IMG/VR virus record: IMGVR_UViG_2718218139_000010
Location: 1-35,239 of that record
Strand: one strand, 5' to 3'
DNA from: a virus
Lineage: Duplodnaviria > Heunggongvirae > Uroviricota > Caudoviricetes
Length of the DNA: 35,239 nucleotides
Program-made: the position numbers
In this document: piece after piece, positions 27,001 to 30,000 of the stretch
Numbering within the stretch: the stretch's first letter is position 1
Layout: each line of letters begins with the position of its first letter

Positions 27001-30000
27001 CAAAGCTAAACCATTGCCAAACAGTCTGTTGAGAGCCCCCCATATAACGACCTATTTCAGCTTGAGTGTATTTCTGCCTAATTTTTTTGCGAGTGCTATC
27101 TAGCATTTTGCCCTCCTCTAAAAAACTATAAGCAAAGCCTACAATAAAAAACTGTACACAATCAACAGTTTTTTATTGTGATGCTTTTAACAGTATTTAC
27201 CTGTAAAATTGAATAATGATGAACGCCCTAGAAGTATCTATGTACAGAATCAGCAAGCTTCTTCAGGAAACTGGATGGAGCCAGGCTGAGCTTGCCCGTA
27301 GAATTGGTGTGACACAACAAACTGTTCAACAATGGGTCAGCGGTAAGGCTACACCTAAAGCCTCAAGTTTGGATAAACTGGTTGAGGTTACAGGGCATCC
27401 ATTGCATTGGTTTTTATTGCCTCCTGAAGAGGGGGAGCAAATTTTCACCCCTGACACGATGAAAATTGGTCCTCGTCAACGCGAACTGCTCCAGGTTTTT
27501 AGTGCGTTTCCAGAGGAAGACCAAGAAAAAATGCTTCAAGAAATCAAAGACAAGAAAAAATCAATGGAAGAAACCATTGCCCGGTGGTTGGCGGCACAAA
27601 AAAGCCGCCGGGCGTGACCACTGTACAAGAAGAGGAGTTATGTCATGAGTACAGCCCTTTCTCCGATAGTTTCAGAATTCGAAACTACCGAACAAGAAAA
27701 CAGTTACAACGAATGGTTGCGCGCTAAAGTGGCGTCAAGCCTTGCAGACCCTCGTCCCTCAATTCCACATGACGAGGTAATGGCTGAAATGGAGAATCTT
27801 ATTGCTCAAATTGCTGTAACTAACAGGAGCGAGTAATGTTACCCATTTTATGGCTACCATCTGCTCGCGATGATTTGCGTCAGATTGTAGCCTATATTGC
27901 TAAGGAAAATATTCCTGCAGCACGCAGACTAAAAATACGTATTGAAACGTCTGTTTTAGCCCTCTCCGAGCATCCATATCTATATCCGCCAAGTGATCGA
28001 GTATCCGGTTTGCGGGAAATTGTGGTTCACCCTAATTATATCGTTTTGTACCGAGTAGCAGCTTCAAGCATTGAAATTGCAAATATTGTGCATGCCCGCC
28101 GACAATTTCCCTTCCCTATCTGAACTGAACAATTTTCATACTCCCTCATTCGAGGGAGTTTTTTTTTGCTCAACACAACAATTAAAAACTGTTGACATAA
28201 AACAGTTTTTAATTGTAGATTATTTCCACCACCCCACCCCGCCCCGCAGAATGCAGGGCAATACTTCGAGTTACCCGGCAGTGGTCAGGGGTTAAGTAGC
28301 CAGCCCGAGGCGTAAGAACATGACGGCAGGGTTCAACTTTAACTATGCAGCAGGTTTTTGTTCCGCTACCCCGGCGTTAAGGGGAAATGAGGTCAGCATG
28401 GATACTATCGAGCTTGGCAACAACGAATCTCTGGTATACGGCGTGTTTCCCAACCAGGACGGCACGTTCACCGCGATGACGTATACCAAAAGCAAAACGT
28501 TTAAAACCGCAGCTGGCGCGCATCGCTGGTTAGCAAGAAACACTGACTGATGAGGTTGACGATGGAATTTAAAGATTTACCTCCTTCAATCCAGGAGATT
28601 GCAGCACACACACTTCGTCATCGTCTGAACGAACTTGAATTGGAATCGGTAACAAAAAAAGACACTGATAATATGGCTCGTAATGTGCGCGATGCGTTTA
28701 CTGGGCTGTTTTCAGATACAGCTTTAAATATCCATGGCACAGAGGATACAGCAAAACAATTTGCAGAAAAAGAAGTGGAAGATCTCAGTTCAAAGAGCCA
28801 GAAACAGCTAAACAACCATGAAATTAACGAACTGCTTCTGGCAACAGGCTTCATAAATATTAACGAATATGACCGCCGTAAAAAAATGTTATCTGATCAA
28901 TCCATCAAGATATCTTTTTAGCATCAGCGTTTCTACGTTATTAAAACCATCAGATTTTAACATAGCTTCGATTCGCTGATTTAAATTGCCAACTAACTGT
29001 TGATACTGAGTAGATGGAAGCATGTGTACCAGCTCTTTGAGAACACAATAACATGCACCAAGTTTTAACTCCTGCTCTGACATTTTATCCTCCATTGAGG
29101 TTACTGGTTGAGAATGGAGACCTCTCGTGACAGCGTGTGGTCGTGCGCCGGACACGGATAAGAATCCGGCACTGACAGTTTACTGAAAGGATATATCCCT
29201 GAAAAGTCAGGGCATAACACGAAAGTGCACGGCGAGATTCCTTTGCATATAAGGCTTGTCGTTAAATTTCTTCGACCGTGCACTTCCGGTTGTGGCAATC
29301 CGCGAAATGGCGCGGCGGTAAGTATGGCTGGGGCTTCCTCCATTGCTCCAGAAAATGCGCCGGGTTGTCAGGTTGACCATACGCTTAAGTGACAGCCCCG
29401 CCACAATACCCATGTGTAGTCTTTGGTGGCATCAGTTCGACTCCGTGACTGCTCTGCCACCCTTTTTAAAGTGAATTTTGTGATGCGGTGAATGCGGCTA
29501 TGCGCACGCGGAACAGTTAAATCCGTAACGTGGTCTTTTACGGGGCATAACGGGCATACCTCTGTATTCCGGCGTTAATTGTTAACTGGTTAACGTCACC
29601 TGGAGGCACCAGGCACTGCATCACAAAATTCATTGTTGAGGACGCGATAATGGAAACGTTATTACAGAACGTTAATACGTCTGAAGGGTGTTTTGATATT
29701 GGTGTTCTGCTCAGTAACCGGGAGTTTACTGAAGATGCCATTAAAATGCGGAAATATGAACCTTATCTTCTCAATGATAATTCCATACTTTCCCGAATTG
29801 CCCTTCTTAAACTTGGTATTTTCGGGGGGCAGCAGTGACTTCTGCATTTGCACTGGTAATGACTGTTTTTCTTATAACGGGTGAGCCACAGAATGTGATT
29901 ACCGGAATTTATGCCAGTAAAGAATCATGCCTCCGGGCAAGAGACGAGCAAAAAATTTCTGGCGAATGCCTCCCGTTAAAAAAAGTATCGCTGTACCTGA

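What the first reader, a model, noticed from the sequence alone, without database searches (positions are those of the whole stretch)
27145..28209. Same operator palindrome at the divergent immunity promoters and at the PL-like promoter
AAAAACTGT-N9-ACAGTTTTT occurs between ydaS-like and paaR2-like and again overlapping a TTGACA -35 box after the parE2 terminator. One repressor probably controls both PR/PRM-like and PL-like promoters. The PL-like site would gate the dicF-dicB-exo-xis-int operon.
Basis: seen in the sequence. Interest (0 to 1): 0.5.

Follow-up and report, generated by a model that had tools for sequence, protein, structure and literature searches.

The report
Prophage immunity operators at OR and OL
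The repeated palindrome is real and marks the repressor-binding sites of an E. coli prophage's on/off switch, a textbook lambda/434-style design in a variant whose operator sequence seems not to have been described.

Summary
AAAAACTGT-N9-ACAGTTTTT occurs exactly twice (27147-27173, 28184-28210), against 0.01 expected. Each copy is really a 39-bp palindrome.

Comparative data show that the functional unit is a 15-bp operator, ACA(A/G)T-N5-A(C/T)TGT, with phage-434-like half-sites:
- Three sites lie between the divergent ydaS-like and repressor genes: 27141-55, 27165-79, 27190-204.
- Two flank the -35 of a strong promoter after the parE terminator: 28178-92, 28202-16.

Evidence from relatives:
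- Across 43 near-identical prophages, no half-site column varies, while 13 of 30 spacer columns do.
- In all 11 loci analysed (this window plus ten loci covering about seven other repressor specificities, eight genera), a matrix built from the OR sites picks out a downstream OL pair as its best other hits.
- Half-site positions 4-5 co-vary with one recognition-helix residue in both the repressor and the Cro-like protein.

The layout matches the tested CP-933P PaaR2/YdaS switch and Qin DicA/dicBp. However, the repressor's DNA-binding head differs from PaaR2; it is the CP-933M-type paralogue.

This is a new member of a known kind. No binding experiment exists, and how far PL transcription reaches (exo, xis, int) is unknown.

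The parts
26425..26850 (-). ydaT-like gene (CII analogue)
   Evidence: Pfam YdaT_toxin, E 4.6e-9. 79% identical to CP-933P YdaT.
26840..26857 (.). YdaT operator TTGATTTTCATGAATCAA at the ydaS/ydaT junction (PRE-like region)
   Evidence: Exact match to the published YdaT site TTGATT-N6-AATCAA (PMC9986795 abstract). It is the only 0-mismatch hit in the window.
26834..27106 (-). ydaS-like gene (Cro analogue), recognition helix SQQTVWQW
   Evidence: Pfam YdaS_toxin. 40% identical to the repressor's HTH over 57 aa. The helix co-varies with the operators in relatives.
27136..27141 (-). PR-like -10 (TAGGCT on the - strand), sharing one base with OR1
   Evidence: Read from the sequence. A TAnnnT is kept at this register in relatives, and the geometry matches PL.
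27141..27155 (.). Operator OR1, ACAATAAAAAACTGT, inside the PR spacer
   Evidence: Exact match to ACART-N5-AYTGT. Invariant in 14 distinct OR variants. The register is conserved in relatives.
27160..27165 (-). PR-like -35 (TTGATT on the - strand), in the centre of the palindrome
   Evidence: Read from the sequence. The TCA part is conserved while the rest of the spacer varies.
27165..27179 (.). Operator OR2, ACAGTTTTTTATTGT, between the PR -35 and the PRM -35 region
   Evidence: It differs from phage 434 OR3 (ACAGTTTTTCTTGT) by one inserted T in the centre and one C-to-A substitution.
27190..27204 (.). Operator OR3, ACAGTATTTACCTGT, abutting the PRM -10
   Evidence: One mismatch to the pattern. 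Matrix score 15.4, with 0.08 hits expected at a score of 15 or more. Same register (-26 to -12 from the ATG) in Salmonella, Serratia, Klebsiella and Pluralibacter relatives. Only one central column varies.
27204..27209 (+). PRM-like -10 (TAAAAT), 6 nt before the repressor ATG, implying a leaderless mRNA
   Evidence: Read from the sequence. CP-933P has the same -10-to-ATG geometry, and 5' RACE there showed a leaderless paaR2 (sequence).
27216..27617 (+). Immunity repressor (133 aa): 434-type HTH head plus PaaR2-type C-terminal tail
   Evidence: Pfam HTH_3, with no peptidase domain. The best PDB hit is the 434 repressor, E 2e-5. 42% identical to PaaR2 over the C-terminal 98 aa, and 97% identical to the second O157:H7 paralogue.
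27645..28123 (+). paaA-parE toxin-antitoxin cargo (27645-27836 and 27836-28123)
   Evidence: Pfam PaaA2, E 1e-21, and ParE_toxin, E 7e-16. 73% and 67% identical to PaaA2 and ParE2.
28140..28168 (+). Intrinsic terminator of the repressor-paaA-parE operon
   Evidence: 8-bp GC-rich stem plus a T-run. Free energy -13.7 kcal/mol, z -5.8.
28178..28192 (.). Operator OL2, ACAATTAAAAACTGT, upstream of and sharing one base with the PL -35
   Evidence: Nearly invariant in 18 distinct left-flank variants of the OL region, while the flanks vary.
28192..28221 (+). PL-like promoter: TTGACA (28192-97), 18-nt spacer, TAGATT (28216-21)
   Evidence: 10/12 consensus match. Positionally equivalent to PL933P, and the conserved flank CCACCCCGCCCC follows in both.
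28202..28216 (.). Operator OL1, ACAGTTTTTAATTGT, inside the PL spacer and sharing one base with the -10
28320..30023 (+). Genes downstream of PL: DUF1391 (ydfA-like), a 123-aa ORF, DicF sRNA (29411-29462), dicB (29650-29838), DUF1482
   Evidence: Pfam DUF1391, DicB and DUF1482. Rfam DicF, 55.9 bits.
30116..35239 (+). Exonuclease (30116-32554), excisionase (32607-32822), IS3-family IS (32879-34035), integrase (34121 to the window end)
   Evidence: Pfam Exonuc_VIII plus Rv2179c-like, Exc, HTH_Tnp_1 plus rve, and Arm-DNA-bind_1 plus Phage_integrase. Co-transcription from PL was not shown.

Best explanation
The two palindromes are the right and left operator regions (OR, OL) of a lambdoid prophage immunity switch.

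**Operators.** The binding unit is a 15-bp dyad, ACA(A/G)T-N5-A(C/T)TGT. Its half-site centres lie one helical turn apart. I infer that each unit binds one dimer of the 133-aa repressor (27216-27617), and also the Cro-like YdaS protein.

**OR.** OR has three units.
- OR1 sits in the spacer of the leftward PR-like promoter.
- OR2 sits between the PR -35 and the PRM -35 region.
- OR3 abuts the -10 of PRM, which makes a leaderless repressor mRNA.

**OL.** OL has two units that bracket the -35 of a strong PL-like promoter. OL1 fills its spacer.

**Why the two regions look alike.** PR and PL are built identically: -35, an 18-nt spacer holding an operator, then -10. In this immunity type the two units are exact inverted copies. 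That is why each region reads as one 39-bp palindrome.

**Regulatory logic.** Repressor bound at OR1, OR2, OL1 and OL2 would shut PR (ydaS/ydaT and replication genes) and PL (ydfA-like, dicF, dicB and beyond). Bound at OR2 it could activate PRM. Bound at OR3 it could autorepress. The PaaR2-like C-terminal tail may allow OL-OR looping through an octamer.

**Shown versus inferred.**
- Shown here: the sites, their conservation, and their co-variation with the proteins.
- Inferred: binding, stoichiometry, activation and looping.
For: **Significance.**
- The 27-mer occurs twice against 0.01 expected.
- All four exact matches to the 15-mer pattern lie inside the two palindromes, and a fifth site with one mismatch lies at 27190.
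- The matrix finds 5 hits scoring 15 or more, against 0.08 expected.

**Phylogenetic footprint.** Among 14 distinct OR variants from 43 loci, 0 of 30 half-site columns vary, against 13 of 30 spacer or tail columns (p = 4.6e-5). The OL arms are likewise fixed while their flanks vary.

**Register.** Three 15-bp sites sit at identical distances from the repressor ATG in E. coli, Salmonella, Serratia, Klebsiella and Pluralibacter.

**OR/OL co-variation.** In 11 of 11 loci (window plus ten heteroimmune loci), a matrix built from the OR sites ranks a downstream pair first and second among non-OR positions. The pair is 21-24 nt apart, brackets a -35-like hexamer (TTGAC in ten of eleven loci, TTTACA in L060) and abuts a -10.

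**Protein/DNA co-variation.** Residue 39 of the repressor and the matching residue of YdaS track half-site positions 4-5. In repressors, Q goes with ACA[AG][TG], K with ACAAC or ACAC[TC], and R with AC[AT]C[AG]. YdaS carries the matching K in all three ACAAC loci and R in all four AC[AT]C[AG] loci. In Q-type loci YdaS is Q, L or G, and in the ACAC[TC] loci the repressor has K while YdaS has R.

**Resemblance to 434.** The HTH is closest to the 434 repressor, with Q34, Q35 and Q39 aligned to Q28, Q29 and Q33. The annotated 434 operators share the half-sites ACAAT, ACAGT and ACAAG, and place OR3 next to the PRM -10 and OL1 next to the PL -10.

**Experimental precedents.**
- CP-933P: PaaR2 and YdaS footprint about 78 and 65 bp of OR and repress PL933P about 100-fold.
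- Qin: DicA represses dicBp 22-fold.
Against: - There is no binding, footprint or reporter data for this allele. Everything here is comparative.
- The PR-like -10 (TAGGCT) and the PRM -35 (ATGCTT) are poor consensus matches, and the promoter scan found only PL.
- OL has two sites, not the three seen in lambda, 434, Qin and CP-933P.
- PR is offset by one operator relative to 434: here the -35 lies between OR1 and OR2.
- Operators are 15 bp, not 14 bp as in 434.
- The co-variation rests on about 8 immunity types that are not phylogenetically independent.
Confidence: 0.85

Rival explanations
1. Each 27- to 39-bp palindrome is a single operator read as one unit, by one dimer contacting the inner ACTGT...ACAGT arms or by a rigid tetramer. 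This is what the first reader implied.
For: The arms are perfectly complementary, 15/15, at both loci in this immunity type. The two copies share the whole 39 bp.
Against: - A third 15-bp unit stands alone at 27190-27204, at a conserved register.
- The gap between the two units varies. At OL it is 9 or 10 nt within the same immunity type and 6-9 nt in relatives.
- In relatives the units are only 7-14/15 complementary, and in L060 the OL pair is a direct repeat, 14/15.
- Individual units are themselves dyads, for example ACAGTAAATTACTGT in Salmonella.
Confidence: 0.08
2. The sites are read only by the Cro-like YdaS protein, or by some other factor, and not by the 133-aa repressor.
For: YdaS carries a very similar helix (SQQTVWQW), and it also co-varies with the operators. 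Sequence alone cannot separate the two proteins.
Against: - The repressor's residue 39 co-varies with the operators as consistently as the matching YdaS residue does, and more so in the Q-type loci.
- In CP-933P, lambda, 434 and Qin both proteins share the operators.
- OR3 over the repressor's own -10 fits autoregulation.
Confidence: 0.05
3. The palindromes act as nucleic-acid hairpins (terminator or cruciform) or as recombination or module-boundary sequences, not as protein operators.
For: As RNA they would fold at -16 to -18 kcal/mol, z -5 to -7. The terminator scan flagged 28178-28216. They lie near the edges of the heteroimmune segment.
Against: - They lie upstream of the inferred starts of PR and PL, so they are largely untranscribed.
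- No T-run follows them.
- The large hairpin is not conserved in relatives, although the 15-bp units are.
- A true terminator already sits at 28140-28168.
Confidence: 0.02

Closest known systems
CP-933P immunity region of E. coli O157:H7 (PaaR2 / YdaS / YdaT with PR933P, PRM933P, PL933P; Jurenas et al. 2021, PMC8630535)
   Same: - The gene order is the same: ydaT, ydaS, OR, repressor, paaA, parE, terminator, PL, ydfA-like and so on.
- The repressor mRNA has the same leaderless geometry.
- PL follows parE and is followed by the same conserved flank.
- The YdaT operator is identical.
- The repressor's C-terminal part is homologous: 42% identity, E 3e-20.
   Different: - The N-terminal DNA-binding head and YdaS are unrelated in sequence.
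- CP-933P's operators are GTTTAGTAA-type repeats, four inverted repeats at OR and three at OL. Here they are 15-bp ACART-N5-AYTGT sites, three at OR and two at OL.
- DNA similarity breaks at 26862-27551.
Second paaR-paaA-parE homologue of O157:H7, reported on CP-933M (PMC8630535 introduction); represented here by locus L050
   Same: The repressor and YdaS are 97% identical to the window's. The OR and OL operators are the same.
   Different: - PaaA and ParE are only 90% and 86% identical.
- The OL centre is 10 nt rather than 9.
- I found no published operator analysis for this paralogue.
- Assigning L050 to CP-933M is my inference.
Phage 434 repressor/Cro and their operators
   Same: - The HTH is similar, with the three base-reading glutamines aligned.
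- The half-sites are the same: ACAAT, ACAGT and ACAAG.
- OR is tripartite, with OR3 abutting the PRM -10 and OL1 abutting the PL -10.
- The outer 5+5 bases are the contacted ones (PMC1636474).
- Repressor and Cro share homologous helices.
   Different: - The sites are 15 bp, not 14 bp.
- OL has two sites, not three.
- PR is shifted by one operator.
- The repressor is 133 aa, with a PaaR2-type tail instead of the RecA-cleavable LexA-like domain.
Qin prophage DicA/DicC and the dicBp promoter (ydfABC-dicF-dicB operon)
   Same: - The repressor is short and non-cleavable, with a divergent Cro-like gene.
- A repressor-controlled PL-type promoter lies immediately upstream of ydfA, dicF and dicB (PMC10448788).
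- DUF1391, DicF and DicB are present here.
   Different: - DicA is only about 29% identical to this repressor.
- Qin has no toxin-antitoxin cargo between the repressor gene and PL.
- Three operators are reported at each region in Qin.

Membership tests
Lambdoid immunity region (CI/Cro-type switch with OR and OL) | Divergent repressor and cro-like genes separated by a short region with multiple operators overlapping both promoters | tested here: met
   A 109-bp intergenic region holds three 15-bp sites that overlap the PR-like and PRM-like elements.
Lambdoid immunity region (CI/Cro-type switch with OR and OL) | The same operators recur at a PL promoter on the far side of the repressor operon | tested here: met
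   Two sites bracket the -35 of a 10/12 promoter at 28178-28221. The same is true in all 11 loci analysed, ten of them heteroimmune.
Lambdoid immunity region (CI/Cro-type switch with OR and OL) | The repressor and Cro physically bind the operators and repress PR and PL | not testable with these tools
   The only support is co-variation and experiments on the CP-933P and Qin analogues.
PaaR-PaaA-ParE three-component module (PaaR2 family) | Three-gene operon: regulator, PaaA antitoxin, ParE toxin | tested here: met
   Pfam HTH_3, PaaA2 and ParE_toxin in consecutive genes at 27216-28123.
PaaR-PaaA-ParE three-component module (PaaR2 family) | Regulator homologous to PaaR2 over its whole length | tested here: not met
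   Only the C-terminal 98 aa align (42% identity). The N-terminal HTH head is different.
PaaR-PaaA-ParE three-component module (PaaR2 family) | Leaderless regulator mRNA and an octameric regulator | tested here: inconclusive
   The -10 lies 6 nt before the ATG, as in CP-933P. There are no RNA or oligomer data for this allele.
Phage 434-type repressor/operator system | HTH with Gln-Gln...Gln reading ACAA-type half-sites | tested here: met
   phmmer gives E 2e-5 to the 434 repressor, with TQQTVQQ aligned to TQQSIEQ. The half-sites ACAAT and ACAGT match 434's.
Phage 434-type repressor/operator system | 14-bp operators, three at OR and three at OL | tested here: not met
   The operators here are 15 bp, and OL has only two. 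No third OL site appeared in any relative.
Phage 434-type repressor/operator system | LexA-like C-terminal domain allowing RecA-mediated cleavage | tested here: not met
   The protein is 133 aa with no Peptidase_S24 hit. The 434 repressor is annotated as LexA-like and its gene spans 633 nt.
Qin DicA/dicBp-type control of the dicBF operon | Repressor-controlled promoter immediately upstream of ydfA, dicF and dicB | tested here: met
   PL at 28192-28221 is followed by DUF1391, DicF and DicB on the same strand. Co-transcription was not tested.

The most novel reading that the evidence does not exclude
This is one allele of a natural specificity series: a family of short, non-cleavable repressors that join a 434-type DNA-reading head to a PaaR2-type oligomerisation tail.

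In this family a single helix position, the equivalent of 434 Gln33 (Q, K or R), changes in step in the repressor and largely also in the Cro-like protein. Operator positions 4-5 at all five sites change with it. The result is a set of new immunity types on an otherwise fixed 15-bp, 3+2-site scaffold. If true, it offers a compact, testable recognition code for re-targeting an entire bistable switch.
Probability: 0.45. Interest if true: 0.45.

Novelty: new member of a known kind. Interest (0 to 1): 0.3.

Why it matters
- **Annotation.** The result gives base-level operator and promoter coordinates for an immunity type carried by about 9% of complete E. coli genomes (508 of 5426), including O157:H7. 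The only published operator map is for the heteroimmune CP-933P allele.
- **Engineering.** The repressor, Cro and operator co-variation offers ready-made orthogonal repressor/operator pairs. It also provides a direct test of the 434 recognition rules on 15-bp sites.
- **Scope.** The work does not reveal a new regulatory principle.

Tried and rejected
1. **Fourth half-site at 27121-27129.** AAAAACTAT lies 26 nt left of OR1 (repeat D4). It varies freely among close relatives (GAAAACGAT, GAAGTTCAT). Rejected.
2. **Extra site at 25542-25556.** ACAGGTTTAACCTGT lies inside a replication gene and scores 13.0. In relatives it reads ACTGG..., so it is not conserved. Treated as chance.
3. **Third OL site over the terminator T-run (about 28155-28169).** The match is poor, the flank varies, and no OR-derived matrix found a third OL site in any locus. 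Rejected.
4. **Hairpin or terminator reading.** Rejected because the long stem is not conserved and is mostly untranscribed.
5. **Assuming the repressor is PaaR2.** This was wrong. Primers in Table S3 of PMC8630535 show that PaaR2 starts MQKKEIRRL. The true CP-933P locus, fetched as L052, has unrelated operators.
6. **Database searches with little yield.**
   - The genome-contig scan gave only 5 useful loci.
   - The INPHARED phage collection has no repressor more than 60% identical over most of its length (best: 42% over 73% of the query, 53% over half).
   - No solved structure matched beyond the HTH.
7. **Literature searches.** Searches for paaR1 and for the operator strings found nothing relevant.
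Full report
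**1. The observation**

The motif AAAAACTGT-N9-ACAGTTTTT occurs with no mismatch at 27147-27173 and 28184-28210. Even with three mismatches allowed it occurs nowhere else in the window. The chance expectation is 0.01.

A repeat search shows that the symmetric element is longer than reported. It forms 39-bp palindromes at 27141-27179 and 28178-28216, with perfectly complementary 15-16-nt arms. The two copies are 82% identical to each other.

- a YdaT_toxin-family gene (26425-26850, - strand)
- a YdaS_toxin-family gene (26834-27106, - strand)
- a 133-aa HTH_3 protein (27216-27617, + strand)
- PaaA2-family and ParE-family genes (27645-28123, + strand)

A good intrinsic terminator follows at 28140-28168. 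The second palindrome comes next. Its centre holds TTGACA, followed 18 nt later by TAGATT, and this is the only promoter-like hit in the region.

**2. The binding unit is 15 bp, not 27 or 39 bp**

Each arm of the palindrome is itself a dyad, ACA(A/G)T-N5-A(C/T)TGT. All four exact matches to this pattern in the window are the four arms. A fifth site with one mismatch, ACAGTATTTACCTGT, lies at 27190-27204. A matrix built from the five sites finds 5 hits scoring 15 or more, against 0.08 expected.

Relatives settle the question. I collected loci encoding repressors 49-99% identical to this one. In E. coli, Salmonella, Serratia, Klebsiella and Pluralibacter, three 15-bp ACA...TGT dyads sit at exactly the same distances from the repressor ATG: -75 to -61, -51 to -37 and -26 to -12. 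The DNA between them has diverged.

Several further points show that the large palindrome is not the conserved feature:
- In Salmonella one unit is a near-perfect dyad by itself (ACAGTAAATTACTGT).
- The gap between the two OL units is 9 or 10 nt within the same immunity type and 6-9 nt in others.
- The 15/15 inverted match of the two units is peculiar to this type. Relatives show 7-14/15, and in one Enterobacter prophage the OL pair is a direct repeat.

**3. Evidence of function**

*Phylogenetic footprint.* Forty-three loci carry a repressor at least 92% identical to this one (the window, two complete E. coli genomes and 40 IMG/VR contigs). They give 14 distinct variants of the 75-nt OR. None of the 30 half-site columns varies, while 13 of 30 spacer or tail columns do (Fisher p = 4.6e-5). 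The first 5 nt of the OR1-OR2 spacer are hypervariable. The TCA that completes the PR -35 is kept in all but one variant. The OL units are similarly fixed while both flanks vary.

*OR/OL co-variation.* For each of 11 loci (the window plus ten heteroimmune loci covering about seven other specificities, eight genera) I built a matrix from that locus's own three OR sites. In every case the two best non-OR hits in 5-8 kb were a pair downstream of the repressor operon. The pair is 21-24 nt apart, brackets a -35-like hexamer (TTGAC in ten of eleven loci, TTTACA in L060) and abuts a -10 of the TAnnnT type.

*Protein/DNA co-variation.* Half-site positions 1-3 (ACA) are largely conserved, with occasional T at position 3 or T at position 1. 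Positions 4-5 differ by type and track one recognition-helix residue:

| Repressor residue 39 | Half-site |
|---|---|
| Q | ACA[AG][TG] |
| K | ACAAC or ACAC[TC] |
| R | AC[AT]C[AG] |

The Cro-like YdaS protein has a homologous helix (SQQTVWQW here). At the same position it carries K in all three ACAAC-type loci and R in all four AC[AT]C[AG]-type loci. In Q-type loci it is Q, L or G. In the ACAC[TC]-type E. coli loci the repressor has K and YdaS has R.

**4. Mechanistic reading**

The repressor's HTH is closest to the phage 434 repressor (E 2e-5). Q34, Q35 and Q39 align with Gln28, Gln29 and Gln33 of 434.

I fetched phage 434 itself. Its annotated operators are 14-bp dyads with the same half-sites, for example OR3 ACAGTTTTTCTTGT, OL2 ACAATATTTATTGT and OR1 ACAAACTTTCTTGT. 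OR3 abuts the PRM -10 and OL1 abuts the PL -10. In 434 the outer 5+5 bases are the contacted ones (PMC1636474). From memory, Gln33 reads base pairs 4-5 in 434, which would fit the co-variation, but I could not verify this from a held paper.

PR and PL are built identically:
- PR, on the - strand: TTGATT at 27165-27160, an 18-nt spacer holding OR1, and TAGGCT at 27141-27136.
- PL: TTGACA at 28192-28197, an 18-nt spacer holding OL1, and TAGATT at 28216-28221.

This puts operators at about -19 and -43 of each promoter.

PRM has TAAAAT at 27204-27209, 6 nt before the ATG. This is the same geometry as CP-933P's experimentally leaderless paaR2. OR3 lies at about -19 and OR2 at about -44 of PRM, a position from which lambda-type activation is plausible.

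Binding, stoichiometry, PRM activation and OL-OR looping (a separation of 1037 bp) are all inferences. Looping is suggested only because the C-terminal part is homologous to PaaR2, which is octameric.

**5. Comparison with what is known**

The architecture is published for CP-933P. There PaaR2 and YdaS footprint OR, and a PL933P promoter downstream of parE2 is repressed about 100-fold by both (PMC8630535).

The window's repressor is not PaaR2. The primer table shows that PaaR2 starts MQKKEIRRL. I fetched the real locus (L052). Only the C-terminal 98 aa align (42% identity). YdaS is unrelated, and the operators are GTTTAGTAA-type repeats. DNA similarity between the two prophages is interrupted at 26862-27551. 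It is weak again over OL. It resumes right after the PL -10, with the shared CCACCCCGCCCC flank.

O157:H7 carries a second system whose repressor and YdaS are 97% identical to the window's and which has the same operators (L050). The paper notes a homologue on CP-933M. Equating L050 with that homologue is my inference.

Qin's DicA/DicC/dicBp has the same logic upstream of ydfABC-dicF-dicB (PMC10448788). The window has DUF1391, DicF, DicB, DUF1482, an exonuclease, Exc, an IS3-family element and an integrase downstream of PL. Whether PL transcripts reach beyond dicB is unknown. In Qin nothing longer than 1.6 kb was seen.

**6. Novelty and verdict**

I found no publication that prints these operator sequences or discusses the paralogue's operators. 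No sequenced phage in the INPHARED collection has a repressor more than 60% identical over most of its length. About 9% of complete E. coli genomes carry the region (508 of 5426).

This is therefore a new, heteroimmune member of a well-understood kind. The refinements are the 15-bp unit, the 3+2 site count, the 434-type reading head and the modular repressor. The one element of wider interest is the apparent single-residue specificity series shared by the repressor, Cro and the operators.

Noticed in passing
window 26840-26857: An exact copy of the published YdaT (CII-analogue) operator, TTGATT-N6-AATCAA, lies at the ydaS/ydaT junction. This implies a PRE-like promoter as in CP-933P.
   Followed up: partly
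window 27645-28168; loci L053, L056, L060, L061, L005: The slot between the repressor gene and the OL pair holds different cargo in different relatives. It is paaA-parE in E. coli, and unrelated ORFs in Salmonella, Klebsiella, Enterobacter (DUF6414) and Pluralibacter. In Arsenophonus OL follows about 100 nt after the repressor match. This resembles a lambda rexAB-like moron slot.
   Followed up: partly
loci L136-L141 (IMG/VR), about 2380-2500: In these contigs the repressor homologue is immediately preceded by another gene ending ...VARWLAQQGRRA*. This indicates two tandem PaaR-type regulators.
   Followed up: no
window about 13400-14560 and 32879-34035: Three short matches recur at a constant offset of 19,474 bp (13459/32933, 13724/33198, 14320/33794). 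This indicates a second copy of the IS3-family element that separates xis from int.
   Followed up: partly
window 17840-18095: Rfam finds AgvB (anti-GcvB sRNA, + strand, 91.7 bits) adjacent to STnc100 (- strand, 143 bits), elsewhere in the prophage.
   Followed up: no
window 25542-25556: A perfect dyad, ACAGGTTTAACCTGT, resembling OR3's weaker half-site lies inside the replication-gene region. It is not conserved in relatives, so it is probably chance.
   Followed up: yes
locus L050 3056-3097, and IMG/VR loci: Natural OL variants with a 10-nt rather than 9-nt centre lengthen the PL spacer from 18 to 19 nt. This may weaken PL in the O157:H7-type allele.
   Followed up: no
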